DNA of 64,000 nucleotides. It comes from Deltaproteobacteria bacterium. GTDB lineage: Bacteria; Myxococcota_A; UBA9160; SZUA-336. The notes beneath the pieces are model-generated. The model ran no database searches and was not told where the DNA came from. It saw nothing but the letters and a program-made list of their open reading frames with translations. Positions within the stretch are counted from its first letter, which is position 1, and every line of letters starts with the position of its first letter. The stretch spans positions 2,936 to 66,935 of the forward strand of contig VGRW01000005.1 in the NCBI GenBank assembly GCA_016875225.1, written 5' to 3'. The position numbers and the translations under genes were made by a program. This document shows, one piece after another, positions 13,747 to 29,986 of the stretch.

Positions 13747-15840
13747 TTGACGGAGATCGCCTGGATCGAGCGCGTCCTGGGATCGCTGACCCGGCTTTCG
13801 GCCGGCTTCGACTGGACGGTCGGCGCGGCGCTCGCCGCCGCGGCGGCCCTGCTCGTCGTCCTGTTGGCCTGGCGGCTGCGCCGTGACAAGTCGAGCCGCG
13901 GAGGCGCTCCCGTCGACGCCGAGGTCGAGTACCGGAAGCTCGTCGAGCAAGGCGAGTTCGAGCGCGCGGCAGATCTGCTGGTCGAGCGACAGCAGGTCGC
14001 GCGGGCTCTGCCGCTCTACGAGCGCGCCGGCGCGAAGCCGAAGCTCGCTCGCGCGCTGCTTTTGGCGAAGCAGCCCGCGCGAGCCGCGCGCGTCTATTCC
14101 GAGCTCGGCCGGCACGCCGAGGCCGCGCATCACTTCCAGAGCGCGGGCCTCTGGCGCGAAGCCGGCGAGGCGCTGCTTCTCACGGGCGAGGAGCGCGAGG
14201 CCGCCGAGCTCTTCGAGCGCGCCGGCGATCTAGAACGGGCCGCGCAGCTGCACCGGCGGCTCGGCGATGCGGAGAGCGCCTCGCGGCTGTTTGCCCGCGC
14301 GGGCCTGGGCATCGCGGCCGCGGAGACGCTGCTCGAATCGCGCGGCCGCACACCGCGCTGGCTGCGCCGCGCCGCCGAGCTCTACGAGTCCGCCTCCGAA
14401 TGGGATCAGGCGGCGGGCTGCTACGCGGAGGCCGGCGATCCGCGCCAGGCGGCGGAGCTGTACGAGAAGGTCGGCCAGCAGGAGCAGGCGGCCCGCGCCT
14501 ACGAGCGCGCGGGCGTCCACGAGCGCGCCGCGAGCTGCTTCGAGCGGGCGGGCAAGCGATCGGAGGCGCGCGCCTGCTGGGAGCGCGCGGGCGACCGCCT
14601 GCGCGCGGCGGAGATGGCGCTCGAGGACGGCGATCACCTCGCCGCGGGCCGCGCATTCTACGAGCTGGGCTCCTACGAGCGCGCCGTCGACACACTTTCG
14701 CGTATCCCGTCGGGCGCGGCCGGAGCGCGCGACGCCTCGCGGCTGCTCGCCAGGATCTTCCTCGAGAAGGGCCTGATCGACCGCGCCAGGGAGAAGCTCG
14801 ATGCGTCGGCCGGGGGAAGCGGCTACACGAAGGACGATCTGGAGCTTCTGCTCCTGCTCGCGACCGCGTTGGAGCGGATCGGCGACGTGGCGGGTGCAGT
14901 CGGCACGCTCGAGCGCATCGCGCAGGTCGATTCGCGCTACGCCGACATCGAGGCTCGAATCGAACGGCTCGCCGAGCGCGCGCCCGGCAACGCCACGGCT
15001 CCGTCGCTCGCGACGTCGGCCGACGACCGCTACGAGCTTCGCGACGAGATCGGGCGCGGCGGGATGGGCATCGTCTATCTCGCGAGCGACCGGGAGCTCG
15101 GGCGCGCCGTCGCGATCAAATTCCTCCCCGGCGAGCTCGCCGCGAATCCGCAGGCCGTGCAGATGTTCCGCGCCGAGGCGCGCGCGGCGGCGGCGATGAA
15201 CCACCCCAACATCGTGCACATCTACGACGTCGCGGTGGTGAACGGCCAGCCGTGCATCGTGATGGAGTACGTGCAGGGTCGAACCGTGCGGGAGGTGATG
15301 CGGATCCGCGGCTCGAGCAGCCGCCAGCCGCTTCCGCCCCACCGCGTCGCGGAGATCGGGCGCGAGATCTGCCGCGCGCTCGGCTACGCGCACCGCTCCA
15401 ACGTGATCCACCGCGACGTGAAGCCGTCGAACATCCTGCTCACCGCCGACGGCAGCGCGAAGCTGATGGACTTCGGCATCAGCAAGGCGCTGGAGACCGG
15501 AAGCGAGGCGCTCACCGAGGCCCGCGGCACGCCGCAGTACATGCCGCCGGAGCAGATCCTCGGCCACGAGATCGACGGGCGCGCCGACCTCTACGCGCTC
15601 GGGATCTCGATGTTCGAGATGGCGACCGCCGAGCGCCCCTTCAGCGGCGAAGGCGTGGTCGACCAGCAGCTGCACGCGCCGCTTCCCGATCCGCGCCGGC
15701 TGCGCCCGGAGATCCCCGAGGGGCTGGTCGCGATCCTGAAGCGCGCCTGCCAGAAGGATCCGGACGGCCGCTTCGCGTCCGCGCACGAGATGGCCCAGGC
15801 GCTCGACGCGCTGCTGGAGAGCTCAGGGAAGCAGCGCTGA
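13747..15840 (+). CDS. membrane-anchored Hanks-type Ser/Thr protein kinase with N-terminal array of short alpha-helical (TPR-like) repeats
   Basis: TM helix AALAAAAALLVVLLAW with positive-inside RLRRDK. At least 8 tandem ~19-aa repeats of the form xAxELYERAGxxxxAA. C-terminal kinase domain with VAIKFL, HRDVKPSNILL, DFGIS, GTPQYMPPE. Confidence 0.85.
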   Translation: MTEIAWIERVLGSLTRLSAGFDWTVGAALAAAAALLVVLLAWRLRRDKSSRGGAPVDAEVEYRKLVEQGEFERAADLLVERQQVARALPLYERAGAKPKLARALLLAKQPARAARVYSELGRHAEAAHHFQSAGLWREAGEALLLTGEEREAAELFERAGDLERAAQLHRRLGDAESASRLFARAGLGIAAAETLLESRGRTPRWLRRAAELYESASEWDQAAGCYAEAGDPRQAAELYEKVGQQEQAARAYERAGVHERAASCFERAGKRSEARACWERAGDRLRAAEMALEDGDHLAAGRAFYELGSYERAVDTLSRIPSGAAGARDASRLLARIFLEKGLIDRAREKLDASAGGSGYTKDDLELLLLLATALERIGDVAGAVGTLERIAQVDSRYADIEARIERLAERAPGNATAPSLATSADDRYELRDEIGRGGMGIVYLASDRELGRAVAIKFLPGELAANPQAVQMFRAEARAAAAMNHPNIVHIYDVAVVNGQPCIVMEYVQGRTVREVMRIRGSSSRQPLPPHRVAEIGREICRALGYAHRSNVIHRDVKPSNILLTADGSAKLMDFGISKALETGSEALTEARGTPQYMPPEQILGHEIDGRADLYALGISMFEMATAERPFSGEGVVDQQLHAPLPDPRRLRPEIPEGLVAILKRACQKDPDGRFASAHEMAQALDALLESSGKQR

Positions 15841-16689
15841 GGCGGCTCCGACGCTGACGATCGTTCGCTTGGCGTCGTCCTTCTCGACCCAGATCTCGTA
15901 CTCGCGCCGCGTGAACGCGCCTTCTGCGTTCTCCGAGCGAAGTTTCGCGCGGGCGCGCACGCGCTCGCCGCCCCAGAGCACGTTCACGAGCTTCAGATCC
16001 ATGCGTCCACCCGCGAGCCAGCCCATGCCGTGCGCGTTGCCCATGACCTGCGAAGCGAGGCAGGTCGAGAGCATCCCCTGCACGACGACGTCGGGAAAGC
16101 CGAGCTTCTTCGCCTCGTCGGGGTCGGTGTGGTAGTTCCGCGCGGGCCCCGAGAAGCGCCAGCAGGTGGCGAGGTCGACCCGTAGCTCGACCGGCTCGAG
16201 CTCGGGGCCGTCGCCCTCCCCGACCGCGCGCCGCTCTTTCTTCTCCGCCGAGGCGCGGTCCACGACGTACGCGCCGTCCGCCTGCGGCAGCTCGGCGAGG
16301 AACGACTGGTGCGTTCGCGAACGCACCAGGAGCCTCCCGCTCTCGTCGCAGTAGTCGACCTCGTTCACGACGAAGTCGCGGTCGCGCTTGCGATAGCGCT
16401 CGATCACGGTCGAGCGGGTGCGCACCGTCGAGCCGGCGCGGATCGGCGCGAAGAGCAGCCACTCCTGGCGCGCGTGCAGGTTTCCGACCAGGTTGCGCAG
16501 GTACCAGCGCTCCAGGTGCGCGTAGACCTCGCTGTGGTAGAGCAGCGGCGGCGCGACGCCCTCGCGCGCGTACACCGAATTGCTGTCGGCGAAGGTGTCG
16601 CAGTAGAACGCGATCACCTGCGGCGAGATCGCGCGCTCCGCCTGGTGGACGAGATCTCCGACTCGAACCGGCTGGCCTTTGAGGTTCAC
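15823..16689 (-). CDS. MaoC-like (R)-specific enoyl-CoA hydratase/dehydratase, double hot-dog
   Basis: 288 aa. C-terminal hydratase-2 motif region RNYHTDPDEAKKLGFPDVVVQGM. Convergent with the kinase gene, overlapping it by 18 nt. Confidence 0.7.
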   Translation of the reverse strand: MNLKGQPVRVGDLVHQAERAISPQVIAFYCDTFADSNSVYAREGVAPPLLYHSEVYAHLERWYLRNLVGNLHARQEWLLFAPIRAGSTVRTRSTVIERYRKRDRDFVVNEVDYCDESGRLLVRSRTHQSFLAELPQADGAYVVDRASAEKKERRAVGEGDGPELEPVELRVDLATCWRFSGPARNYHTDPDEAKKLGFPDVVVQGMLSTCLASQVMGNAHGMGWLAGGRMDLKLVNVLWGGERVRARAKLRSENAEGAFTRREYEIWVEKDDAKRTIVSVGAASALLP

Positions 16690-16720
16690 GCCGCGATTCT
16701 GTCACACTCGGGCCACCGCC

Positions 16721-18202
16721 ATGCGCCGCGATCCAGGGCCAGAAGCAAACGTCGGGACCTGGCTCGCCGCCCACGCCGACGCCCGAGGCGACCACCCCGC
16801 GCTCGTCGTCGAGGCGAGCGGGGAGCGCATCTCGTACGCGGAGCTCGAGGCGCGCGTGAACCGCGCGGCCGCGGCCCTCTCGGCGCTCGGCGTCGTCGCG
16901 GGCGATCGGGTCGCACTCGCGCTCCCGAGCGAGCCTCTGTACCTGGAGCTGTATTTCGCAAGCGCGCTGCTCGGCGCGATCCTGATTCCGCTGAACACCC
17001 GGCTCACCGCGGCCGAGCTCGGCTTCCAGATCGAAGATTCCGAGCCGCGCTTGGTGGTGAGAGAGGGGGCGATCGAGATTCCCTACCGGTCCGGCACGCA
17101 CCAGCTCGCTCCCGACGAGCTCCGCGCGCGCATGCCCGGTCGCGCCGAGCGTCCCGCCGCCGCGCCCGGCGGCGAGAGCCCGCAGGCGATCCTCTACACC
17201 AGCGGCACGACCGGGCGACCCAAAGGCGCCGTGCTTCCGCACCGCAAGACCTACTGGAACTCGCGCAACGCCGAGCGCTACTTCGAGCTCGTGGGCGACG
17301 ACGTCGTCGTGGTGCCGATCCCGCTGTTCCACTCCTTCGGCCTGAAGATCCTCTCGGTTCCCGCGCTCTTCGCCGGCGCGACGGCCGTGCTCGTCGACCG
17401 CTTCGATCCGATCGGGCTTGCGGACTGCATCGCGCGGGAGCGAGCGACCCTGCTCGGCGCGGTGCCCGTGATGTACGAGCGCATGCTCGCCGCGGGGCTC
17501 GAGCCGGCCAAGCTCGAAACGCTGCGCTTCGCGTTCAGCGCGGGAGCCGCGCTCGGCGTCGAGACGATCGAGCGCTACGCGCGGCTGGGAATCCGCCTGA
17601 AGCAGGGCTACGGCCAGACCGAGACATCGATCCTGTGCTGTCTGGACGCGGCAGACGCGCTTCGCAAGGCCGGCTCGGTCGGAAGACCGGTCGCCTTCGG
17701 CGAGGTGCGCATCGCCGACGAGAACGGGCGGGACGTTCCGCGCGGCACCCGCGGCGAGATCGTCGTGCGCGGCCCGATCGTGATGACCGGCTACTGGCGC
17801 CGTCCGGAGGAGACCGAGCAGAGCCGGATCGACGGCTGGCACCGCACCGGCGATCTCGGCGTGATGGATGACGAGGGGATCATCACGCTCGTCGGCCGTC
17901 TGAAGGAGCTCTACATCAGCGGCGGAGAGAACGTGTACCCGGCCGAGGTGGAGCGGGTGCTCGGCCAGCACCCGCAGGTCGCCGAGGTCGCGGTCGTGGG
18001 CGTGCCCGACGAGACCTGGGGCGAGGCCGGTCGCGCCTACGTGGTCGCGGCGAGCGCCGAGCTCGATGCGAGCGCCCTGCTCGCCTGGGCGGGACGGCGC
18101 CTGGCGCGCTACAAGCTCCCGCGAGAGGTGGTCGTGGTCGCCGAGCTCCCGCGCACGGCCTCGGGGAAGGTGCAGAAGCATGCGCTCCTGGCTCGCTCTT
18201 AG
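16721..18202 (+). CDS. acyl-CoA synthetase / AMP-dependent ligase
   Basis: AMP-binding motifs ILYTSGTTGRPKGAVLPH, GYGQTETS, GDLGVMDDEGIITLVGRLKELYISGGENVYPAEVE, LPRTASGKVQKHAL. The start is either M at 16721 or 16679. Confidence 0.85.
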   Translation: MRRDPGPEANVGTWLAAHADARGDHPALVVEASGERISYAELEARVNRAAAALSALGVVAGDRVALALPSEPLYLELYFASALLGAILIPLNTRLTAAELGFQIEDSEPRLVVREGAIEIPYRSGTHQLAPDELRARMPGRAERPAAAPGGESPQAILYTSGTTGRPKGAVLPHRKTYWNSRNAERYFELVGDDVVVVPIPLFHSFGLKILSVPALFAGATAVLVDRFDPIGLADCIARERATLLGAVPVMYERMLAAGLEPAKLETLRFAFSAGAALGVETIERYARLGIRLKQGYGQTETSILCCLDAADALRKAGSVGRPVAFGEVRIADENGRDVPRGTRGEIVVRGPIVMTGYWRRPEETEQSRIDGWHRTGDLGVMDDEGIITLVGRLKELYISGGENVYPAEVERVLGQHPQVAEVAVVGVPDETWGEAGRAYVVAASAELDASALLAWAGRRLARYKLPREVVVVAELPRTASGKVQKHALLARS

Positions 18203-18938: not shown

Positions 18939-18981
18939 CAGCCGCGCGCGGGTCCGGTTAGTGTTCTGCGCCCGCGAGTCT

Positions 18982-21442
<2,461 letters not shown>

Positions 21443-21532
21443 TCGCGGCTCAGTCGGAATCGGGTCCGAGCGCCCCGAGCGCGCGCAGATCGGACTCGAA
21501 GCGCTCGGTGAGAGCGCCGAGCGCGGCGTGAG

Positions 21533-21940
21533 CTACTCCCAGGCCCGTGCGCGCCGCCGCGCACCAGGGCAGCAGGTAGCGGGGAGCACGTCGTCCTCGC
21601 GGTCGATCGCGGCCGCGAGAGCCTCGCAGCTCGGCGCGAGGTGGTCCGGCGGGAGCGCCTGCTCCTGCCAGCGCAGACCGAGAAAGTGGAGCACGCGCAT
21701 CCACTCCTCGCGCGCGTGCCCGCCCTCGAGGCCGAGCGCGGCGTGCAGCAGGAGCGGAACGCTGGGCCGCGGCGAGCCGACGTGGAACGCGGCCCAGTAC
21801 GCGGGCTCGAGGTCGGCGAAGCGTCCGGGCAGACCGAGCGCGTCCCACGCTTCGTCGCGAAGCTCGCGCGAGGCGAGCGGACTCCAGATCCGCGCCCAGC
21901 CGACGAACGGCAGCGCCCGCGCGCGCGATGCCGCGCTCAC
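21533..21940 (-). CDS. TorD/NarJ-family redox-enzyme maturation chaperone (delta subunit) of the molybdoenzyme operon; apparently truncated or frameshifted near 21580
   Basis: GTG at 21940 overlaps the gamma stop (GTGA). Contains the family signature EPAYWAAFHVGSPRPSVP...ALPPDHLAPSCEALAAA (E-x-[FY]-x-x-F-x-G...E-P-P-D-H). The frame terminates 30 aa after the PDH motif, but the +1 frame continues with RYLLPWCAAARTGLGVAHAALGALTERFESDL to 21450. Confidence 0.45.
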   Translation of the reverse strand: MSAASRARALPFVGWARIWSPLASRELRDEAWDALGLPGRFADLEPAYWAAFHVGSPRPSVPLLLHAALGLEGGHAREEWMRVLHFLGLRWQEQALPPDHLAPSCEALAAAIDREDDVLPATCCPGARRRARAWE

Positions 21941-22485
21941 GCCGCGATCTCGAGCCACCCGGAAGAGACCGACTTCAGACCGCCGCGATCGTTCTGCGCT
22001 CCCTGCCACACCGCGATCGCGAGCTTGCGCTGCGCTTCGAGCAGCGCCCAGCCCTCGAGCTCGAACAAGAGCCGCCAGCGTCCGCTCTTCCACTCCGCGC
22101 TCGCGCGCCAGCCCGCCGGCGCCGCCGCGCGCGTGACGGTTCCGAGGCCTTGGGCGCTCACACCGAAGAGCGGCTCGCGATCGGCGCGCCAGAGCGCCCC
22201 CTCGACGGATTTCCCTGGCGCGCCCATCGTGAGCCACGGCGCATCGGCGACCGACGGCGCGAGAACCGCCGCCGCGTCGGTGAATCGATCGACGTCGTCG
22301 GCGAGCGCGCGCGGCTCTTGCGCGCAGGCCCAGACCAGCTCGACCCGCCACAGACTCCCGGACTTCGAGGTCTCGAGCTCGACGACCGGGGTTCGCGGCG
22401 CGTCTCGCCCCACGTAGGCGACCGGGACGTACCCGCCGGGAGACATCCCCGTCGGCGCAGCGATCAGCGAGACCTTGCGGCGCAT
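21937..22485 (-). CDS. candidate gamma subunit (EB_dh / ethylbenzene-dehydrogenase-gamma-like haem-b protein) of the type II molybdoenzyme
   Basis: 182-aa non-junk, Trp-rich ORF in operon position after beta. ATG shares its A with the beta TGA stop. Possible haem ligand residues (WLTMGAPGK, K near the C-terminus). No convincing own signal peptide. Assigned by position and composition only. Confidence 0.5.
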   Translation of the reverse strand: MRRKVSLIAAPTGMSPGGYVPVAYVGRDAPRTPVVELETSKSGSLWRVELVWACAQEPRALADDVDRFTDAAAVLAPSVADAPWLTMGAPGKSVEGALWRADREPLFGVSAQGLGTVTRAAAPAGWRASAEWKSGRWRLLFELEGWALLEAQRKLAIAVWQGAQNDRGGLKSVSSGWLEIAA

Positions 22486-23513
22486 CAGAGCACCTCCCGC
22501 TTGCGCGGGCCGAGCGCGAAGTTCTGGTTCCAGTCGTAGGCGATCAGAAGATCCATGAGCTCGCTCGGCTCTCCGCTGCGGCGTTTGGCCCGCTCGGCTT
22601 CGAGCGTCGCGAGCACCTCCGGCACGCGCTCGCCGAACAGGCTCACCAGGTAGCGGGTCGGAATTCGCGGCTCGTCGGTGGGACGCCCCTGCGCATCGAG
22701 CTTGGGCGGGCTCATCGGCATGACGTAGAAGACGTTCGGGCCGAGCTCGAACTCGGGGTGCAGCGGAAGCGCAACGCGGTGCTTGTGGACGAGCTTCCAG
22801 ATCGGCCCGGCTTCGTCGTCGAGATAGCCGACGAAGCGCAGTCGCCCCGGGCACTGCCGCGCGCACGCCGGCGCGACGCCCTCCTCGATTCGCGGCAGAC
22901 AGAAGATGCACTTGGTCGAGACCTGCCGCAGCGGATCGAAGTAGACCTTCTTGTACGGGCACGCTTCGACGCAGAAGCGGTAGCCGTGGCAGCGATCCTG
23001 ATCGACCAGCACGATTCCGTCCTCGTCGCGCTTCTCGATCGCATGACGCGGACAGGCGTCGAGGCAGGCCGGGTGCGTGCAGTGGTTGCACAGGCGCGGC
23101 AGGTAGAAGTAGTGGTTGTCCTGCGGGTACTCGCCGGCGCCGCGATCCTCGTCCCAGTTCGCGCCCCAGTGGGGCTTCTCGTTCGGGCGCAGCCACGGCT
23201 TGCCCTCGCCCTCGCCTGCGCGCTTTCGCACCTCGTCGTGATTGAAGGTCCAGGCGCGCCCGTAGTCGTCGTCGAGCGTCGGGATCCGGCCCGCCTTCAC
23301 TCCGCCGTCGGGCGTGCGGCCGCCGCTCTCGCCCCAACCGCGCGGATAGCCGGCGCCGGGGAGCGTCTCGACGTTGTTCCAGTACGCATAGCCCGTGCCG
23401 GTGTCCTTGTTCCAGAGCTTCTTGCAGGCGATCGTGCACGTCTGGCAGCCGATGCACTTGTTCAGGTCGAGCACCATCGCGATCTGTCGCTTCACCGGAT
23501 TCGCGTTCGCCAT
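22485..23513 (-). CDS. molybdoenzyme beta (electron-transfer) subunit, 4x[Fe-S] NarH/EbdB-type
   Basis: MANANPVKRQIAMVLDLNKCIGCQTCTIACK (NarH-like N-terminus). Four cysteine clusters: CIGCQTCTIAC, CNHCTHPACLDACP, CHGYRFCVEACP, CIFCLPRIEEGVAPACARQCP. 342 aa, the size of the EbdB/SerB/ClrB/DdhB/PcrB class rather than the 510-aa NarH. Confidence 0.9.
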   Translation of the reverse strand: MANANPVKRQIAMVLDLNKCIGCQTCTIACKKLWNKDTGTGYAYWNNVETLPGAGYPRGWGESGGRTPDGGVKAGRIPTLDDDYGRAWTFNHDEVRKRAGEGEGKPWLRPNEKPHWGANWDEDRGAGEYPQDNHYFYLPRLCNHCTHPACLDACPRHAIEKRDEDGIVLVDQDRCHGYRFCVEACPYKKVYFDPLRQVSTKCIFCLPRIEEGVAPACARQCPGRLRFVGYLDDEAGPIWKLVHKHRVALPLHPEFELGPNVFYVMPMSPPKLDAQGRPTDEPRIPTRYLVSLFGERVPEVLATLEAERAKRRSGEPSELMDLLIAYDWNQNFALGPRKREVL

Positions 23514-23515
23514 GG

Positions 23516-26485
23516 CTAGGACTCCTGCGCCGCGCGGATCGCATCGACCGCGTCGGCCCTTCGTGGACGGATCGCGACCCGCGTGTCCTGCACCTGCGTG
23601 CCCGGCGCCCAGACGCCGAAGCGCCAGCGCAGCTGGCCCTCGCCGCCCGCGAAGTGGAGCGGGTTCATCAGCCCAGGCGTCACGAACTTGTAGCTCTCGT
23701 GCTTCGGAAACTGGTGCGGCTCCCAGGCGTGGAAGTAGTAGGCGACCCCCGGCCGGACCATCGACGAGTGCTTCACGCGCATGAACACCAGCCCGAAGCG
23801 GTTCTCGAGCTCGGCCCATTCGCCGTCGGCGATCCCGAGCCGCTCCGCGTCGCGCGGGTTCAGGTAGAGCGCCGGCTCGCCGCGCTGCAGTCGCAGAAGC
23901 ATGGGATCGTCGCGCCAGACGCTGTGGATGCTCCAGCGCGCGTGACACGAGATCAGCTGGAACGGCAGGTCCCCCCCCGCCTTCGGGCTCTCGATGTGGG
24001 ACGGGAGCGCCTCCCCGGCCTGCAGGAACCAGGGATGATCGACGTAGAACTGCTGTCGACCGGTGCGCGTGGGCCAGGGCCACTTCTCTTCGGTGAAGTG
24101 GGTGCAGGCGCGCAGCACGCCGTCGCCCTTCCAGGAGTCGTTCCAGAGCTGCGCCTGACCGCCCGGTCCGCCCGCGCCCTTGAACTTCTCGACGCCGGTG
24201 CGCTCGAGCCCCGCGACGGTCATGCCCTGGGTCGTGCCCGAGCTGTCGAGGATGTGCTGCATGACCTTGTCGGTGTCTTTGGGGCCGAACTCGCCATGGT
24301 ACGAGAAGCGATCACCGATCGTGGTGAGATCGACCTCGAGCTTCCCGCAGCCGGGCAACACCGGCGTTCCGCGCTCTCGCGCGACCCGCTGCACCTGCTG
24401 CGCCAGACGCCAGAAGATCTCCCACTCGTCCTTCGAGTCGCCGACCGGCGGCACCGCGGCGTCGCAGTAGTGGAGGTAGGGGATGTAAGCGACGGTGTAC
24501 TTGATGCCGCGCTTCTCGTAGTAGCCGGCGGCGGGCAGCAGGTAGTCGGCGTGCATTCCGGTGAACGTGAACTTGGGATTCACGTCGACCACCAGGTCCA
24601 GCGCGGGCCAGAGGTGCTCGAGCGAGCGCTGCGGAAGATTGGAGCGGCGAAGCACGTTGTTGCCGCCGGTCACCCAGGCGCGGGCCGCCTTGGTCGGGAA
24701 GCGCGGCATCCAGCCCTTCTCGCGCGCCTCGCGGTCGTAGTCGGTGAGCGGACGCGGATAGAGGTTCGCCTGCTCGCGGTCGAGATCTCCGGCGATTCCC
24801 TGGTAGCCGAGATTCAGGCTCGCGGCGTTTCCCACGCACGCCAGCTCCTCGGTCATCTCCGCGGCGAGGTCCCAGACGGCGAGCTGCGTGCTGATCCGAC
24901 CGCGCACGCGCTCGACCGCGAGGTCGAAGAGCGTGCTCATGTCGAGGTGCATGAAGAGCTCGAGCCGCCCGCGCATGCCGGTGTGCGACCCGATGCCGAG
25001 CCCGCCCGTCTCGATCCAGCCCGTGGAGTGGTAGCCCGAGCCCTTCCGTCCCACCGCGCCCTTCAGCGACAGGCAGAGGATCTTCGCGCGGTTCATCTGG
25101 TCGGAGTGGAAGAAGCGGTTCGAGCCCCAGCTCGACAGCACCATCGGCCGCTTCGCGCGCGCGAAGCCCTCGGCGAACTTCTCGATCTGCTCGGGGGCGA
25201 GTCCGGTCACTTCTGCGCTGGCCTCGAAGCTCCACGGCTCGAGGTGCTCGCGGAGCAGAGAGCCGACGGGAACGACCACGGTCTCGCTGCCATCGCGAAG
25301 CTTCACGCTGAAGCGGCCCTCGATCGGCGGAGCGAGCGCGCCGCCGCCGAGCCGCGGCTGATCCGTGTTGGTCGGAGCGCCCGGGGCGGCGACCGGAGCG
25401 CCCGCCTTCGCGTCCCAGACGTACACCAGCTCGCGTCGCCCGGCCTCGAGCAGATCCGCCTCGTTCAGGAAGCGGCCGGTGTCCAGTCGCACCAGGATCG
25501 GCAGGTCGGTCTGCTCGCGGACGTAGTCCAGATCGATGCGGCCGGTGTTCCAGATGTGCCGCGCGGTCGCCAGCGCCAGGGCCGCGTCGGCCCCGGGCCG
25601 GATCGGAATCCATTGATCCGCGTGCACGGCGGTGGCGCTGTACTGCGGATCGATCACCACCAGCTCGGCGCCGTTGTACTTCGCCTCGAACAGGAAGTGA
25701 GCGTCGGGGATCTGAGTCACGGCCGGGTTCATCATCCAGACGACGAGATAGTCGGAGAGGAACCACTCGTCGGAGCTTCCGCCGACGTGGGGAAAGCCGA
25801 ACGTGATCGTAGCGCCGTGGTTCAGATCGCCGATCTCCGCCCAGTCGTCGGAGAGCGTGGCTCCGGCCAGGCCGAAGAAGCGCACCCGCCCGGCGGTGGT
25901 CGGGCCCTGGTCGAAGTGGGGGCCGAGATCGTGGATGATGCTGTCGGTGCCGTCCTTCTCGGCGATCGTCACCAGCTTCTCCGCGATCTCGCGCAGCGCG
26001 TCGTCCCAGGAGATCTGCTGCCACTGACCGCCGCCGCGCGGGCCTACGCGCTTCAGCGGAACGGTGAGTCGGCTCGGGCCGTACATGACCTCGGTGTAGC
26101 AGGCGCCCTTCTGACAGCCGCGCGGATTGAAATCGGGAACACCGGGCTCCGAGGCGGTGTAGCTCGCGGTCTGCTCCTCGCGGACGACGATCCCGTCCTT
26201 CACGTACAGGTCGAAGTTGCACGCGCTGCGGCAGTTCAGCCAGCCGTGCGTTCCCTTCGCGACGTGGTCCCAGCTCCAGCGCTGCCGGTAGAGATCCTGC
26301 CAGCTGCCGAGCTTGGTCGGATCGCGCGCGACGCTTCCCGCCGGGAGCTCGGCCGCGATCGCCTCTTCGCGGAGATGCAGGAGCGGAAGTCCGCCCACCG
26401 CGGTCGCGGCCGCCGCCATGCCGGAGAGCTTCAGGAAGCGGCGTCGGTCGAGCCACGTGAAGCGCGAGCCACTGGCGACGGTCAT
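23516..26485 (-). CDS. molybdopterin (Mo-bisPGD) oxidoreductase alpha subunit, type II DMSO reductase family, Tat-exported
   Basis: 989 aa. Twin-arginine signal LDRRRFLKLSGMAAAATAVGG. N-terminal FS0-type motif HGWLNCRSACNFDLYVKDGIVVREEQ (H-x-C-x3-C as in NarG/EbdA). Ends 3 nt before beta. Confidence 0.92.
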   Translation of the reverse strand: MTVASGSRFTWLDRRRFLKLSGMAAAATAVGGLPLLHLREEAIAAELPAGSVARDPTKLGSWQDLYRQRWSWDHVAKGTHGWLNCRSACNFDLYVKDGIVVREEQTASYTASEPGVPDFNPRGCQKGACYTEVMYGPSRLTVPLKRVGPRGGGQWQQISWDDALREIAEKLVTIAEKDGTDSIIHDLGPHFDQGPTTAGRVRFFGLAGATLSDDWAEIGDLNHGATITFGFPHVGGSSDEWFLSDYLVVWMMNPAVTQIPDAHFLFEAKYNGAELVVIDPQYSATAVHADQWIPIRPGADAALALATARHIWNTGRIDLDYVREQTDLPILVRLDTGRFLNEADLLEAGRRELVYVWDAKAGAPVAAPGAPTNTDQPRLGGGALAPPIEGRFSVKLRDGSETVVVPVGSLLREHLEPWSFEASAEVTGLAPEQIEKFAEGFARAKRPMVLSSWGSNRFFHSDQMNRAKILCLSLKGAVGRKGSGYHSTGWIETGGLGIGSHTGMRGRLELFMHLDMSTLFDLAVERVRGRISTQLAVWDLAAEMTEELACVGNAASLNLGYQGIAGDLDREQANLYPRPLTDYDREAREKGWMPRFPTKAARAWVTGGNNVLRRSNLPQRSLEHLWPALDLVVDVNPKFTFTGMHADYLLPAAGYYEKRGIKYTVAYIPYLHYCDAAVPPVGDSKDEWEIFWRLAQQVQRVARERGTPVLPGCGKLEVDLTTIGDRFSYHGEFGPKDTDKVMQHILDSSGTTQGMTVAGLERTGVEKFKGAGGPGGQAQLWNDSWKGDGVLRACTHFTEEKWPWPTRTGRQQFYVDHPWFLQAGEALPSHIESPKAGGDLPFQLISCHARWSIHSVWRDDPMLLRLQRGEPALYLNPRDAERLGIADGEWAELENRFGLVFMRVKHSSMVRPGVAYYFHAWEPHQFPKHESYKFVTPGLMNPLHFAGGEGQLRWRFGVWAPGTQVQDTRVAIRPRRADAVDAIRAAQES

Positions 26486-26579
26486 GTTCGCTTCTCCCGC
26501 CGCATCGAGGTGCGGATCTTCTTCGCGGATTCTGAACGACCCGCTCGCTCGGGTCGAGCGCGCGAGCGACGCCGCAGAC

Positions 26580-27229: not shown

Positions 27230-29905
27230 CTAGCCGTAGAGAACGGAGCGATGGCGCACGATCTCGCCGATCAGCGTCTCGAATCGCTCCGGGTGCTCCG
27301 GCAGGCCGTCGATCCGCGCGCGGCCGATCCGATCGCCCCCGCTCTTCGGAATCACCCAGGGCTGGTGCTGGCCGACGGCGTCGATCAGGCCCGAGACGTT
27401 CAGCGGCCGTTTCTCGTCGTTGCAGGACAGCACCACGAGGTCGTCGCCCTCGACCGTCGCGAGCGACAGCCGCGCGCCGGTGCGCAGGCGCAGCCGGCGG
27501 CCGATCTCGCCCGGATCGAGGTGGGACGGCACGCGCGCCACCGCGAGCTGGTACTCGCCGAAGTGCACCATTCGCGGGTCGTTCTCCGCGACCCAGTCCG
27601 TCTCGGCGCGATAGACGTCCGGAGCCGAGGGCAGGTCGGTCGGCTTGCCGTTCAGCACGGCGACGATCTCGGCACGGTGCTCGCCGGGAGTCTCGGCCAG
27701 GCGCTTGATCAGCGCGATCACTCGGTTGCCCCATTTCTGCATGTCGGTCTCGGAGAGCCGGCGCGCGGAGAGGTCGACCAGCTTGTCGGTGAAGCGGCTG
27801 CGCCGCTCGGTCACCTCGCAGACCGCCCCCAGCGGGCTCGTCGCGTTCTCCTCGATCACGATCGAGTCGCGGCCGAGCACCGCTCGCAGGCGCACCAGAT
27901 CCTCGATCGCCCACTCGTGGTGGTCGAACCACTGCAGCCGTCCGCGGAACAGCTCCGCGGTGTCGAGGACCTCCTTCGGACGCGGCTGCGCGCTGTAGCC
28001 GACGACCAGCACGTCGACGTTGTCTGCGATGTCCGTCGCCGGTCCCTTGAAGAAGTCCATCAGGCCTTCTTGCGGCGCGACCCGGAACGACACGATCGTG
28101 CGTCGGTCGCGCGCCAGGACGAGCGCGGCCAGGATCGAGTCCGGGTCGTCGCGCACGAGGATTGCGGCGCGCTGTCGGCGCGCACGCGGCGGAGACACCT
28201 CGACCGGCTCCGCGGCCGGACCGGTCTCCGATTCTTCCTCACCCTGCGCGAGGGTCGCCTCCATGTCGCTCGAGAGCGCCTCGTCGGGAGCCGGCGCCTC
28301 GCCCGGCTCGAGCTCCTCGCCGCCGAATGCCCGCGCTTCGCCGTCGCTGCCAGCCTCGCGCGACTCCAGCGCCTCGGAGTCGGCTTCCGCCCGCTCTCCG
28401 GACACGATCCGCGCGCCTCTTCGGCCGCCTCGGCGTCTTCGGCCGCGCCGTCCGCGCCGAGGCTCCAAACCGTCCGATTCCTCCCCGGCCGCGCGAGTCT
28501 CTGCATCGGCCTCGGGCTCGAGCTCGGCCTCGAACGGCGCGCGGGAATCGAGCTCTCCTTCCGCGGCCGGCTCGGCTTCGGTCGATTCGCCGCGCAGCTC
28601 CGCCGCGCGGCGCGCCTCGCGACGGGCATTGCGCTCTTCCTCCGCGCTGGCCGCGTCGTACACGCGCGCCGACGACTCGGCTGTCCCTCGATCGCCGCCG
28701 CGGCCGCGGCGTCGCCCCCGCCGCCGACCGCCCCGACGCTCGGATCGACCGACGTCCTCACGCAGATCCTCGGAATCGAGCGCTGTCTCGGCCTCCGGCA
28801 GCGTCTCGCTCGCATAGGCGCGCATCGGCTCGGTCGGAAGGCGGCGCTCCCCGATCGGACCCGCGACGGCCTCGAGGATCTCGCGCGCCTCGTCCGAGAT
28901 CGAGTCGCTCGAGACGAAGATTCGCGGATCCCCGACCGCGCCCGGGCTCCAGACCTCGCGCTCGAGGTCGAGCAGATGCCAGCCAGCGATCAACCCCGGG
29001 ACGTCCGCTACGTCGAGGCTCGGCCGGATGGCACCGACGACGGGCCGGCCCGCGATGTCGATGCCCACCCAATCGATCGCGTCGCTGCCCTCCTCGTTCC
29101 ACGGCAGCCAGCGCGCCGTGACTCCCGCGTGCGCCTCGTCCGCGCAGCTCTCGACCAGCGCATCGCGCCGCGCTGCGGCGCCCTCGAGCAGGCTCGGGTC
29201 GTCCGCGAGTCGCACGACCCATTCATATAGATCCGCTCCGATCCGGGCGAAGCTCGCGTCGTTCGCGCGAATCGTTCGCCGCTCGGGAAGCGCGACGGAG
29301 ATCACGACCTCATCGCCTTCGACGCTGACCCGGGCAGCCCGCTCGCCGCGCACGTAGAAGAGATGATCCGGGCCGGCCGGGCGCACGCCGGCGGCGCCCG
29401 AGACGGCGGCCGCCCCCTCCAATACCCGCAACACCCGCGCCAGCACACTCGTGCTGCCGCCGATCAGTGACGGCCTGGCCGGAGCCGGGTGGCTCTCGAG
29501 CTGACAGGCACCACCGTCCTCGGCGAGCGCGGGCAGCGTCAGCAGATGCACCGACGGACCGCGCTCCGCCGCCCGCGACGCGGCGCGACGGGTGCGCTCG
29601 GAGAACTCCGGCGCCGCGATCAGGACCTCGGCGAGGCTGCGCCCTGCGCCCGCGCGCCGCGCGGCGATCCGCGCCCAGCCGAGCAGGTCGAGACCCTCCC
29701 GGCGGCTCGCCAGCAGCGCGATCGGGCGGCTGCCCTGCCAGCGGGCTGCACCGGCCTCGAGATGCTCGGGAAGCTCGTCGAAGTTCTCGAGCTCGCGAAC
29801 CTCGCGCAGATCGACACCGTGCAGATTGCGAAGCCGATCGAGCAGACTGCCGTTGTTGCTGCTCCGACCGAACCAGCGACCGGCTCCCCAGCCTCGCTTC
29901 CTCAA
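27230..29905 (-). CDS. large hypothetical protein: folded N-terminal region, ~250-aa Arg/Gly- and Glu/Asp-rich low-complexity linker, C-terminal DHH/DHHA1-like phosphoesterase motifs
   Basis: 891-aa ORF with high GC3, whereas the antisense ORFs are His/Arg/Asp junk. The central stretch SERRGGRRRGRRRGRGGDRG...EPRRGRRGRRRRGGRRGARIV is interleaved with acidic runs. The C-terminus has DDPDSILAALVLA (motif I-like), VDVLVVGYSA, WFDHHEW (DHH), KSGGDRIG (GGGH-like). Confidence 0.7.
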   Translation of the reverse strand: MRKRGWGAGRWFGRSSNNGSLLDRLRNLHGVDLREVRELENFDELPEHLEAGAARWQGSRPIALLASRREGLDLLGWARIAARRAGAGRSLAEVLIAAPEFSERTRRAASRAAERGPSVHLLTLPALAEDGGACQLESHPAPARPSLIGGSTSVLARVLRVLEGAAAVSGAAGVRPAGPDHLFYVRGERAARVSVEGDEVVISVALPERRTIRANDASFARIGADLYEWVVRLADDPSLLEGAAARRDALVESCADEAHAGVTARWLPWNEEGSDAIDWVGIDIAGRPVVGAIRPSLDVADVPGLIAGWHLLDLEREVWSPGAVGDPRIFVSSDSISDEAREILEAVAGPIGERRLPTEPMRAYASETLPEAETALDSEDLREDVGRSERRGGRRRGRRRGRGGDRGTAESSARVYDAASAEEERNARREARRAAELRGESTEAEPAAEGELDSRAPFEAELEPEADAETRAAGEESDGLEPRRGRRGRRRRGGRRGARIVSGERAEADSEALESREAGSDGEARAFGGEELEPGEAPAPDEALSSDMEATLAQGEEESETGPAAEPVEVSPPRARRQRAAILVRDDPDSILAALVLARDRRTIVSFRVAPQEGLMDFFKGPATDIADNVDVLVVGYSAQPRPKEVLDTAELFRGRLQWFDHHEWAIEDLVRLRAVLGRDSIVIEENATSPLGAVCEVTERRSRFTDKLVDLSARRLSETDMQKWGNRVIALIKRLAETPGEHRAEIVAVLNGKPTDLPSAPDVYRAETDWVAENDPRMVHFGEYQLAVARVPSHLDPGEIGRRLRLRTGARLSLATVEGDDLVVLSCNDEKRPLNVSGLIDAVGQHQPWVIPKSGGDRIGRARIDGLPEHPERFETLIGEIVRHRSVLYG

Positions 29906-29986
29906 ACTGTGTCCTCCCGCATAGCGGCGCCAACTCTATCCGCCACGACGACCGCCGCCAGGGCGCCGTCCATGGCGCGAGCGCGT

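What the first reader, a model, noticed from the sequence alone, without database searches (positions are those of the whole stretch)
21450..26485. Four-gene periplasmic type-II DMSO-reductase-family molybdoenzyme operon (Tat-alpha / 4xFeS-beta / EB_dh-like gamma / TorD-like delta) of unknown substrate
The alpha subunit is 989 aa with an SRRxFLK-type Tat signal and an H-x-C-x3-C FS0 motif. The beta subunit is the short 342-aa EbdB/SerB/ClrB/DdhB/PcrB type rather than the 510-aa NarH. A Trp-rich 182-aa third gene and a TorD/NarJ-motif fourth gene follow with 1-nt and 4-nt overlaps (alpha-beta-gamma-delta order, as in ebdABCD). This clade contains enzymes with very different chemistry: ethylbenzene, p-cymene and steroid C25 hydroxylases, selenate, chlorate and perchlorate reductases, DMS dehydrogenase and nitrite oxidoreductase. 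Substrate cannot be inferred from sequence, and nothing in the neighbourhood (thiC, msrA, queE) hints at it. It is the only clearly accessory respiratory or catabolic module in the window, and the best candidate here for an uncharacterised enzyme system.
Basis: partly seen in the sequence, partly recalled or inferred. Interest (0 to 1): 0.7.

Follow-up and report, generated by a model that had tools for sequence, protein, structure and literature searches.

The report
Steroid-C26-dehydrogenase-like molybdenum hydroxylase operon
This is a real four-gene operon for a periplasmic molybdenum enzyme whose closest studied relative (56% identical) adds an oxygen atom from water to steroid side chains without O2; it belongs to a large unstudied sister branch, so its enzyme class is known but its exact substrate is not.

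Summary
The operon is real and lies on the minus strand: alpha 23516-26485, beta 22485-23513, gamma 21937-22485, delta from 21940.

Alpha is 56% identical over its full length to the alpha subunit of steroid C26 dehydrogenase 1 (S26DH1, WP_154715926) of Sterolibacterium denitrificans. Beta is 70%, gamma 44% and delta 42% identical to the genes of that cluster. EbdA and PcrA are only about 30-36% identical.

In a neighbour-joining tree alpha falls in a 98-sequence branch (Myxococcota, marine and soil Gammaproteobacteria, alkane degrader HdN1). That branch is sister to the 82-sequence branch holding S26DH1-3. At the EbdA-His192 position the two branches differ: His in 98/98 against Asn in 78/82.

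Close relatives sit beside TetR regulators and lipid or isoprenoid catabolic genes. None sits beside chlorite dismutase.

Best reading: an O2-independent, water-dependent C-H hydroxylase for a hydrophobic, probably isoprenoid-type substrate that is not yet identified.

In this genome delta carries a unique 16-nt frameshifting deletion, and the TetR gene found upstream in relatives is missing.

Verdict: new member of a known kind, moderate interest.

The parts
23516..26485 (-). Alpha subunit, 989 aa: Mo-bis-PGD catalytic subunit. Features: Tat signal (RR at residues 14-15), FS0 ligands H80/C85/C89/C124, Mo ligand Asp220 (codon 25826-25828), His190 at the EbdA-His192 position (codon 25916-25918), Arg457 at the EbdA-Lys450 position.
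   Evidence: PF00384 and PF01568 hit. TIGR03479 scores 808.7, the best model but below its cutoff of 984.75. 56% identical to S26DH1 alpha, P0289 = WP_154715926. Residue mapping onto EbdA and PcrA. Conservation. AF2 model pLDDT 86.3; best PDB match is EbdA 2ivf_A at TM 0.85.
22485..23513 (-). Beta subunit, 342 aa: ferredoxin-like electron-transfer subunit with four Cys groups (three 4Fe-4S and one 3Fe-4S type, CHGYRFCVEAC).
   Evidence: TIGR03478 scores 496.6, above its cutoff of 480.7; PF13247 E = 5e-31. 70% identical to S26DH1 beta. Cys motifs read directly from the translation.
21937..22485 (-). Gamma subunit, 182 aa: EB_dh-type haem b subunit. Putative axial ligands are Met87 and Lys171. 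It has no N-terminal signal peptide.
   Evidence: EbdC (2ivf_C) E = 1.7e-12, with TMG and GLKS aligned to the EbdC haem-ligand motifs. Both motifs are invariant in relatives. TIGR03477 scores 75.2, below its cutoff. 44% identical to S26DH1 gamma.
21533..21940 (-). Delta, a TorD/NarJ-type maturation chaperone as encoded: 135 aa, of which the last ~14 are frameshifted nonsense.
   Evidence: PF02613 scores 20.2 against a cutoff of 22.2. 11 of 18 family members hit PF02613, best E = 5.8e-7. A profile search of the PDB puts two TorD chaperones on top, weakly (E = 0.15 and 0.5). 42% identical to the gene after gamma in the S26DH1 cluster. Frameshift shown.
21450..21584 (-). Out-of-frame remnant of the delta C-terminus (RYLLPWC...FESDLRALGALGPDSD*), lying downstream of a 16-nt deletion whose junction is at about 21583/21584.
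   Evidence: Protein and DNA alignments with L002, L065, L004, L005, L001, L006 and L009. All of these keep the 16 nt.
26486..26579 (-). 94-nt spacer between the queE stop and the alpha ATG. This is the position where relatives carry a TetR-family regulator gene; no remnant of it is present here.
   Evidence: The syntenic contig L065 (79-84% DNA identity over 22 kb) has 880 nt with a TetR gene at this position. TetR lies directly upstream of alpha in 11 related loci.

Best explanation
The operon encodes a periplasmic alpha-beta-gamma molybdoenzyme of the EbDH / S25DH / S26DH group, the 'alkyl-chain hydroxylases' of the type II DMSO reductase family.

Proposed maturation and export (inferred):
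- Alpha receives Mo-bis-PGD and FS0 in the cytoplasm with help from the TorD-like delta.
- Alpha is exported by Tat, carrying beta and the signal-less gamma with it.

Proposed reaction, by analogy with EbDH, S25DH and S26DH (PMC6153880, PMC7411048):
- Mo(VI)=O, held by Asp220, removes a hydride or H atom from a C-H bond of a hydrophobic substrate.
- A water-derived OH is returned to the carbon.
- The two electrons pass through FS0, then the four FeS clusters of beta, then the Met/Lys-ligated haem b of gamma, to a periplasmic acceptor, probably a c-type cytochrome encoded elsewhere.

The substrate is most likely an isoprenoid-type or other branched lipid side chain. It is probably not the same one used by S26DH1/2, because the gene lies in a sister branch that keeps the EbDH-type His at the active site.

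Shown here: gene structure, cofactor-binding motifs, homology and phylogenetic placement, and the gene neighbourhoods of relatives. Inferred: the reaction type, the electron path, export by hitch-hiking, and the substrate class.

In this particular genome the chaperone gene is frameshifted and the TetR regulator is absent. Activity may therefore depend on another chaperone copy, or may be lost.
For: - Homology to a characterised enzyme. Alpha is 56% identical and 72% similar over 985 aa to S26DH1 alpha. That accession is the purified enzyme (PMC7411048, PMC11061730). Beta is 70%, gamma 44% and delta 42% identical, with the same gene order, as the S26DH1 cluster in L081.
- Clustering. In a library clustered at 50% identity, the query's relatives fall into one cluster; the next clusters are at most 45% identical. 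EbdA is 31% and PcrA 36% identical.
- Tree. In the NJ tree the 180-sequence clade joins the EbdA group before PcrA.
- Fold. The best PDB match is EbdA, TM 0.85 against 0.81 for PcrA.
- Active-site residues. Asp220 and Arg457 are invariant. His190, equivalent to EbdA His192, is present in 98/98 sequences of the query's branch.
- Haem ligands of gamma are conserved.
- Neighbourhoods of close relatives. TetR lies directly upstream in 11 loci. Nearby genes include acyl-CoA dehydrogenase pairs, enoyl-CoA hydratases, thiolase, MMPL and MFS transporters, P450, a SnoaL/LEH-like protein, SDR, ThDP enzymes, a TonB receptor, CtmAB-like flavoproteins and a carotenoid-type gene.
- Hosts include hydrocarbon or sterol degraders: HdN1, Ketobacter, Sterolibacterium, Denitratisoma.
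- Selection. dN/dS is 0.12-0.29 for all four genes.
Against: - No enzyme of the His-type branch has been assayed, and 56% identity does not fix a substrate.
- In the window itself the flanks are housekeeping genes: thiC, msrA, queE.
- The tree is neighbour-joining, has no support values, and lacks S25dA1-4, AhyA, CmdA, DdhA, SerA and ClrA, which I could not retrieve.
- No cytochrome c partner is encoded nearby.
- Delta is frameshifted and TetR is missing, so the locus may not be functional here.
- The alpha score is below the curated TIGR03479 cutoff.
Confidence: 0.65

Rival explanations
1. It is a functional orthologue of S26DH. [quoted passage not shown]
For: - S26DH1-3 are the closest characterised enzymes, at 56-57% identity.
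- The four-gene layout is the same.
- An orphan alpha in the His-type branch, 74% identical to the query (L010), lies beside two CtmAB / delta-24-desaturase-like flavoproteins.
Against: - The query lies in the sister branch, not inside the S26DH branch.
- The EbdA-His192 position is His in 98/98 sequences of the query's branch and Asn in 78/82 of the S26DH branch. Position 655 is Y against W.
- CtmAB-like flavoproteins flank 5 of 14 Asn-type loci but only 1 of 28 His-type loci.
- At least three MAGs (probably four) carry both types, which suggests distinct roles.
- No steroid-catabolic genes occur in the window.
Confidence: 0.15
2. It is an oxyanion reductase (chlorate, perchlorate, selenate or periplasmic nitrate) or a DMS dehydrogenase. 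Some relatives are auto-annotated that way.
For: - PcrA gives the highest phmmer score among PDB chains, 479 against 446 bits for EbdA.
- The HdN1 homologue and one Pseudomonadales homologue are named 'dimethylsulfide dehydrogenase alpha' by their sources.
- The Asp ligand and the subunit set are common to all these enzymes.
Against: - The PcrA match is split in two and misses the central region, whereas EbdA aligns end to end.
- The PcrA gate residues F164 and Y165 are replaced by D and W.
- No chlorite dismutase appeared among the neighbour families recurring across 77 related loci or in any locus with called genes and Pfam tables.
- The neighbours are lipid-catabolic genes and TetR regulators.
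- The clade contains the assayed hydroxylases S26DH1/2 and joins EbdA before PcrA.
- The 'Ddh' names are similarity-based labels with no experiment behind them.
Confidence: 0.07
3. In this genome the module is a decaying or silent relic. The chaperone is truncated and the regulator is lost, so no active enzyme is made.
For: - A 16-nt deletion unique to the window removes the conserved last ~40 aa of delta.
- The chaperone was reported as essential for active S25DH production (PMC6016249).
- TetR is present in the syntenic L065 and in 10 other relatives but absent here.
Against: - Alpha, beta and gamma are intact.
- dN/dS is 0.12-0.29, including the first 120 codons of delta.
- Loss of a TetR repressor could just as well cause constitutive expression.
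- S. denitrificans uses one chaperone for several enzymes, so another copy could substitute (PMC6016249, PMC7411048).
- The deletion could be an assembly error; the related MFD assemblies L065 and L010 have broken alpha or beta ORFs consistent with indel errors.
Confidence: 0.13

Closest known systems
Steroid C26 dehydrogenases S26DH1-3 of Sterolibacterium denitrificans (alpha WP_154715926, WP_154715930-32 cluster, WP_154716405; PMC7411048, PMC11061730)
   Same: - Same alpha-beta-gamma-delta gene order and subunit sizes: 989/342/182 aa here against 1008/345/181 aa.
- Alpha is 56-57%, beta 70%, gamma 44% and the delta-like gene 42% identical.
- Shared features: Tat signal on alpha, signal-less gamma, Asp Mo ligand, Arg at the EbdA-Lys450 position, and the same FS0 spacing.
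   Different: - It lies in the sister branch in the tree.
- His replaces Asn at the EbdA-His192 position, and Tyr replaces Trp at position 655.
- There is no steroid-degradation context in the window.
- CtmAB / delta-24-desaturase-like neighbours are typical of the Asn-type branch, not of this one.
Ethylbenzene dehydrogenase EbdABCD of Aromatoleum aromaticum (PDB 2ivf)
   Same: - Same subunit set and gene order.
- Full-length alignment and the best structural match (TM 0.85).
- Asp223, His192 and the basic residue at 450 are all matched.
- The gamma Met/Lys haem-ligand motifs are conserved.
   Different: - Alpha is only about 31% identical. The NCBIfam EbdA equivalog scores 471 against a cutoff of 2000.
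- FS0 spacing differs.
- Gamma lacks the ~23 N-terminal residues that EbdC has.
- There are no ped or apc-type genes nearby.
Steroid C25 dehydrogenases S25DH1-4 (PMC6016249)
   Same: Same enzyme class, same cofactor set and a Tat signal. A chaperone is required.
   Different: - Their sequences were not recovered here.
- Their published N-termini (MQISRRQFIVGSA...) match none of the fetched proteins.
- The next-nearest cluster, which holds a JGI-labelled 'steroid C-25 hydroxylase alpha', is only 40-41% identical.
- S25DH is reported to lack the active-site His (PMC6153880), which this enzyme has.
Perchlorate reductase PcrAB (PDB 4ydd)
   Same: Type II DMSO reductase fold (TM 0.81) and Asp ligand.
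   Different: - About 30-36% identical.
- The aromatic gate residues are absent.
- The central insert (query residues 487-582) is not matched.
- There is no cld gene.

Membership tests
Type II DMSO reductase family (Asp-ligated Mo-bis-PGD alpha / FeS beta / haem b gamma / chaperone) | Alpha has the MopB fold, an N-terminal FS0 (His/Cys3) motif and an Asp Mo ligand | tested here: met
   PF00384 and PF01568 hit. H80/C85/C89/C124 and D220 align with the EbdA, PcrA and NarG ligands and are invariant in 120 homologues. Foldseek TM is 0.85 to EbdA and 0.81 to PcrA.
Type II DMSO reductase family (Asp-ligated Mo-bis-PGD alpha / FeS beta / haem b gamma / chaperone) | Curated NCBIfam subfamily cutoffs for the four subunits (TIGR03479, 03478, 03477, 03482) | tested here: inconclusive
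   Beta passes (496.6 > 480.7). Alpha scores 808.7 against 984.75, gamma 75.2 against 169.85 and delta 20 against 152.3. Each is the best-scoring model but falls below its cutoff.
Type II DMSO reductase family (Asp-ligated Mo-bis-PGD alpha / FeS beta / haem b gamma / chaperone) | Gamma is an EB_dh-type haem b protein with Met/Lys axial ligands | tested here: met
   EbdC 2ivf_C E = 1.7e-12. The TMG and LKS motifs align to the EbdC ligand motifs and are invariant in relatives. The Pfam EB_dh score is below its cutoff. Haem binding itself cannot be tested here.
Type II DMSO reductase family (Asp-ligated Mo-bis-PGD alpha / FeS beta / haem b gamma / chaperone) | A TorD/NarJ-family chaperone is encoded with the structural genes | tested here: inconclusive
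   11 of 18 family members hit PF02613 (best E = 5.8e-7). The top PDB profile hits are TorD chaperones, but weak (E = 0.15). The window copy scores 20.2 against 22.2 and is frameshifted.
EbDH / S25DH / S26DH alkyl-chain hydroxylase group | Groups phylogenetically with the assayed hydroxylases rather than with Ser/Clr/Ddh/Pcr/Nar | tested here: met
   It shares a 50%-identity cluster and a 180-sequence clade with S26DH1-3. The clade joins EbdA before PcrA. Caveat: the tree is NJ, has no support values, and lacks several reference enzymes.
EbDH / S25DH / S26DH alkyl-chain hydroxylase group | Water-dependent hydroxylation of a C-H bond with an artificial or cytochrome c acceptor | not testable with these tools
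   This needs an enzyme assay.
S26DH (steroid C26 dehydrogenase) proper | Falls inside the branch holding S26DH1-3 | tested here: not met
   The query is in the 98-sequence sister branch; S26DH1-3 are in the 82-sequence branch.
S26DH (steroid C26 dehydrogenase) proper | Active-site signature of the S26DH branch (Asn at the EbdA-His192 position, Trp at query position 655) | tested here: not met
   The query has His190 and Tyr655. The position is His in 98/98 of the query's branch and Asn in 78/82 of the S26DH branch.
S26DH (steroid C26 dehydrogenase) proper | Genomic association with anaerobic steroid side-chain genes (delta-24 desaturase, 25-hydroxysteroid kinase, AcmA/B) | tested here: not met
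   The window flanks are thiC, msrA, queE and other housekeeping genes. Only the 64-kb window could be inspected, not the whole genome.
(Per)chlorate reductase | Adjacent chlorite dismutase and the PcrA aromatic gate (F164, Y165, W461) | tested here: not met
   F164 and Y165 are replaced by D and W. No cld-like family recurs among the neighbours in 77 loci.
DMS dehydrogenase (DdhA) | Close relationship to Rhodovulum DdhA | not tested
   No DdhA sequence was available. The 'Ddh' names on relatives come from the data sources only.

The most novel reading that the evidence does not exclude
The His-type branch is a widespread, unassayed family of O2-independent hydroxylases acting on non-steroid hydrophobic substrates. 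Candidates are acyclic isoprenoids, carotenoid or quinone side chains, and alkanes or alkyl chains. The branch has 98 sequences in this sample, from Myxococcota, Binatia, Caulobacterales and many marine and soil Gammaproteobacteria. It could work as the first step of a two-enzyme pair with the Asn-type S26DH-like paralogue found in the same genomes. It could also be the missing anaerobic alkane-activating enzyme of strain HdN1, whose copy is labelled 'DMS dehydrogenase' and is not mentioned in the HdN1 paper.
Probability: 0.2. Interest if true: 0.7.

Novelty: new member of a known kind. Interest (0 to 1): 0.4.

Why it matters
Molybdenum hydroxylases of the EbDH / S25DH / S26DH group are the only known way, other than glycyl-radical enzymes, to functionalise unactivated C-H bonds without O2. 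They also have biotechnological value, for example in 25-hydroxyvitamin D3 synthesis.

If the reading here is right, a large sister branch of S26DH with an EbDH-like active-site His is common in Myxococcota and in hydrocarbon-degrading Gammaproteobacteria. That points to a reservoir of regio-specific anaerobic hydroxylases with unknown substrates. It also offers a concrete candidate for the unexplained anaerobic alkane activation in HdN1.

For the window itself the practical message is more modest. The operon should be annotated as an 'S25DH/S26DH-like molybdenum hydroxylase, substrate unknown; chaperone gene frameshifted'. It should not be called a DMS dehydrogenase or a generic DMSO reductase.

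Tried and rejected
- **S25dA1-4 sequences.** I tried to recover them to place them in the tree. Their published N-termini match none of the 480 fetched proteins. The last homologue search, seeded with the nearest outgroup representative P0122, returned only MAG proteins, one of them JGI-labelled 'steroid C-25 hydroxylase alpha'. The position of S25DH relative to the query therefore rests on the literature.
- **Naming the 50%-cluster representatives.** This gave only 'molybdopterin-dependent oxidoreductase' labels.
- **Reference sequences.** AhyA, CmdA, DdhA, SerA and ClrA could not be obtained. EbdA and PcrA were rebuilt from the PDB alignments; the PcrA copy lacks residues 456-509.
- **Promoter and terminator scan, and folding of the queE-alpha spacer.** Neither gave anything above background.
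- **(Per)chlorate reductase.** Considered and rejected: gate residues absent, no cld.
- **DMS dehydrogenase.** Considered and rejected: the label comes from annotation only.
- **NXR or NarG.** Considered and rejected: 18-21% structural identity and much larger proteins.
- **HdN1 paper (PMC3151549).** It does not mention this gene cluster.
- **ahyA paper (PMC7803848).** It does not include HdN1 or this clade.

Full report
**1. What is in the sequence**

The window has about 70% G+C. The operon is on the minus strand.

- Alpha runs from 26485 down to 23516 (989 aa).
- Beta runs from 23513 to 22485 (342 aa), starting 2 nt after the alpha stop.
- Gamma runs from 22485 to 21937 (182 aa), with a TGATG overlap.
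- Delta starts at a GTG at 21940, with a GTGA overlap.

- Alpha hits PF00384 and PF01568. Its best NCBIfam model is TIGR03479 'DMSO_red_II_alp' at 808.7 bits, below the cutoff of 984.75. The EbdA equivalog scores only 471 against 2000.
- Beta passes TIGR03478 (496.6 > 480.7).
- Gamma scores 75 bits on TIGR03477, 19.8 on EB_dh, and E = 1.7e-12 against EbdC of PDB 2ivf.
- Delta scores 20.2 bits on PF02613, whose cutoff is 22.2.

The Tat motif is DRRRFLK. The FS0 motif is H80-x4-C85-x3-C89-x34-C124. The Mo ligand is Asp220. All are invariant in 120 homologues.

The gamma Met87 (TMG) and Lys171 (GLKS) align with the EbdC haem-ligand motifs and are invariant. Gamma lacks the ~23 N-terminal residues of EbdC. 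It therefore probably has no signal peptide of its own and leaves the cytoplasm with the Tat-targeted alpha. That last point is inference.

**2.

*Delta is frameshifted.* The delta frame ends at 21533 after 135 codons. Relatives encode 159-168 aa. The cause is a 16-nt deletion with its junction near 21583/21584. Six close relatives keep those 16 nt. The first 120 codons are still under purifying selection (dN/dS 0.12). The lesion is therefore either recent or an assembly artefact.

*The TetR regulator is missing.* Contig L065 is syntenic with the window over 22 kb at 79-84% DNA identity. It carries an 880-nt stretch with a TetR-family gene between queE and alpha. The window has only 94 nt there, with no remnant of the gene. 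The same TetR gene lies directly upstream of alpha in 11 related loci found in other genomic contexts. Loss in the window lineage is therefore the simpler reading.

**3. What it is related to**

The closest proteins come from Myxococcota and 'Deltaproteobacteria' MAGs. Identities are 90% for L065, 86% for P0001, and then a continuum down to about 57%.

In a library clustered at 50% identity, the query's relatives fall into a single cluster with representative P0121. The next clusters are at most 45% identical.

A search seeded with a Sterolibacterium MAG member of the clade recovered two Sterolibacterium denitrificans proteins. Their accessions are WP_154715926 and WP_154716405.

- WP_154715926-8 are the alpha5, beta5 and gamma5 subunits of the purified steroid C26 dehydrogenase S26DH1 (PMC7411048).
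- WP_154715930-32 is S26DH2, which hydroxylates stigmastatrienone at C26.
- WP_154716403-5 is S26DH3 (PMC11061730).

The window alpha is 56% identical and 72% similar to S26DH1 alpha over 985 residues. Beta is 70%, gamma 44% and delta 42% identical to the corresponding genes of that cluster, which has the same gene order.

For comparison, identity to EbdA is 31% and to PcrA 36%. An AlphaFold2 model of alpha (pLDDT 86.3) matches EbdA best (TM 0.85), then PcrA (0.81), then NarG (0.74).

**4. Position inside the clade**

I built a neighbour-joining tree of 220 alpha sequences. EbdA and PcrA were rebuilt from the PDB alignments.

- The 180-sequence clade splits into two branches.
- One branch has 98 sequences and holds the query and the strain HdN1 protein.
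- The other has 82 sequences and holds S26DH1-3 and the Denitratisoma proteins.
- The clade then joins a few uncharacterised clusters, then the EbdA group, and only later PcrA.

The two branches differ at a catalytic-site position. The residue aligned with EbdA His192 is His in 98/98 sequences of the query's branch and Asn in 78/82 of the S26DH branch. Position 655 is Tyr, as in EbdA, against Trp, as in PcrA. His192 has been proposed to take part in OH rebound in EbDH, and S25DH is reported to lack it (PMC6153880).

At least three MAGs (probably four) carry one copy of each type. That argues for different roles.

Caveats: the tree has no support values, and I could not obtain S25dA1-4, AhyA, CmdA, DdhA, SerA or ClrA.

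**5. Genomic context**

In the window the operon lies between thiC and msrA on one side and queE on the other, among housekeeping genes. L065 shares this arrangement.

Only the roughly 5-kb module is shared with other relatives, and IS110 transposase genes lie nearby in L001, L002 and L004. The module therefore appears to move between genomes.

Neighbours in relatives are informative.

- L084 (80% identical alpha): thiolase, acyl-CoA dehydrogenase, an MMPL transporter, TetR and a carboxylesterase.
- L085 (81%): four acyl-CoA dehydrogenases, two enoyl-CoA hydratases, a SnoaL/LEH-like protein, a thioesterase, two MFS transporters and a P450.
- Gammaproteobacterial loci at 65-66%: ThDP enzymes plus an SDR directly upstream, with TetR and a TonB-dependent receptor.
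- L087 (61%): a second, more distant alpha-beta pair, a Caroten_synth protein, a CrtI-like oxidase and UbiU/V-like genes.

CtmAB / delta-24-desaturase-like flavoproteins flank 5 of 14 Asn-type loci but only 1 of 28 His-type loci. This fits the published pairing of the delta-24 desaturase with S26DH2. It also fits the reported taxonomic spread of desaturase homologues: Pseudomonadales, Halieaceae and Deltaproteobacteria.

No chlorite dismutase or other oxyanion-respiration marker recurs.

**6. Interpretation**

The operon encodes an S25DH/S26DH-like, EbDH-type molybdenum hydroxylase. The most likely reaction is O2-independent, water-dependent hydroxylation of a C-H bond in a hydrophobic substrate, probably an isoprenoid or branched alkyl chain. 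Electrons would leave through FS0, the beta FeS clusters and the gamma haem b to a periplasmic cytochrome. I put confidence in this enzyme class at about 0.65.

Strict S26DH function is less likely, about 0.15, because of the sister-branch position and the His/Asn and Tyr/Trp differences.

Oxyanion reductase or DMS dehydrogenase readings are unlikely, about 0.07.

Whether the enzyme is made in this organism is uncertain because of the delta frameshift and the missing TetR gene. Alpha, beta and gamma are nevertheless intact and under purifying selection.

**7. Novelty and score**

The enzyme kind is known and its nearest relatives have been purified. What is not described in the searchable literature is the large His-type sister branch and its substrates.

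I rate this a new member of a known kind, with interest 0.4. The most novel reading still open is a widespread family of anaerobic hydroxylases for non-steroid isoprenoids or alkanes, including the HdN1 enzyme. I give that a probability of about 0.2.

Noticed in passing
window 21450-21640 (-): A 16-nt deletion unique to this sequence frameshifts the TorD-like delta gene. Six relatives at about 70-79% DNA identity over this segment keep the 16 nt. It could be a real recent lesion or an assembly error.
   Followed up: yes
window 26486-26579: The TetR-family regulator gene lies directly upstream of alpha in 11 related loci, including the syntenic L065. It is absent here, and only a 94-nt spacer separates queE from alpha.
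   Followed up: yes
L003 / L045 10001-15081 (gamma proteobacterium HdN1, FP929140.1 about 2.50 Mb): The anaerobic alkane degrader HdN1 has an unknown alkane-activation mechanism. It carries a complete His-type alpha-beta-gamma-delta module (alpha 59% identical), annotated as 'dimethylsulfide dehydrogenase'. The HdN1 paper does not mention it.
   Followed up: partly
L087 8596-21070: A gammaproteobacterial locus combines several features: delta-alpha-beta-gamma (His type); a second, distant alpha-beta pair (P0125 type, about 40% identical); an extra EB_dh-like gene; a Caroten_synth (PF04240) gene; a CrtI-like oxidase; and a U32-peptidase pair plus an SCP2 gene that resemble the O2-independent ubiquinone hydroxylation genes UbiU/V/T.
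   Followed up: no
L082 1703-5019 and L083 5386-9986: In two gammaproteobacterial relatives, ThDP-dependent enzymes (up to three paralogues) and an SDR lie directly upstream of the operon. This suggests an alcohol-to-ketone-to-C-C-cleavage route after hydroxylation.
   Followed up: no
L010 9971-17648: A His-type alpha, 74% identical to the query, has no detectable beta, gamma or delta within 10 kb. It is followed by two 529-aa CtmAB / delta-24-desaturase-like flavoprotein genes. This recalls the orphan alpha genes of S. denitrificans that borrow beta and gamma from other clusters.
   Followed up: partly
L027, L018/L053, L044/L049, L035/L060 (pairs of loci from the same MAGs): At least three MAGs (probably four) carry both a His-type and an Asn-type (S26DH-like) alpha. 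This recalls the S25DH + S26DH enzyme pair needed for side-chain oxidation in Sterolibacterium.
   Followed up: partly
window 15823-18202: A MaoC-like hydratase gene (minus strand) and an acyl-CoA synthetase gene (plus strand) lie 3-5 kb from the operon, beyond msrA, thiC and a tRNA-Met gene (18981-19058). A link to the operon is unproven.
   Followed up: no
window 27230-29935 (-): A 901-aa ORF has strong coding-type codon bias, no Pfam hit, and a long Arg/Glu/Ala-rich low-complexity middle region. It is conserved in the syntenic L065.
   Followed up: no
PMC7411048 supplement, Tables 2 and 3: The paper's own labels are inconsistent. The N-terminus listed as 'alpha6' in the Tat-signal table is that of WP_154715926, which the mass-spectrometry table and both papers call alpha5 / S26DH1.
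   Followed up: partly
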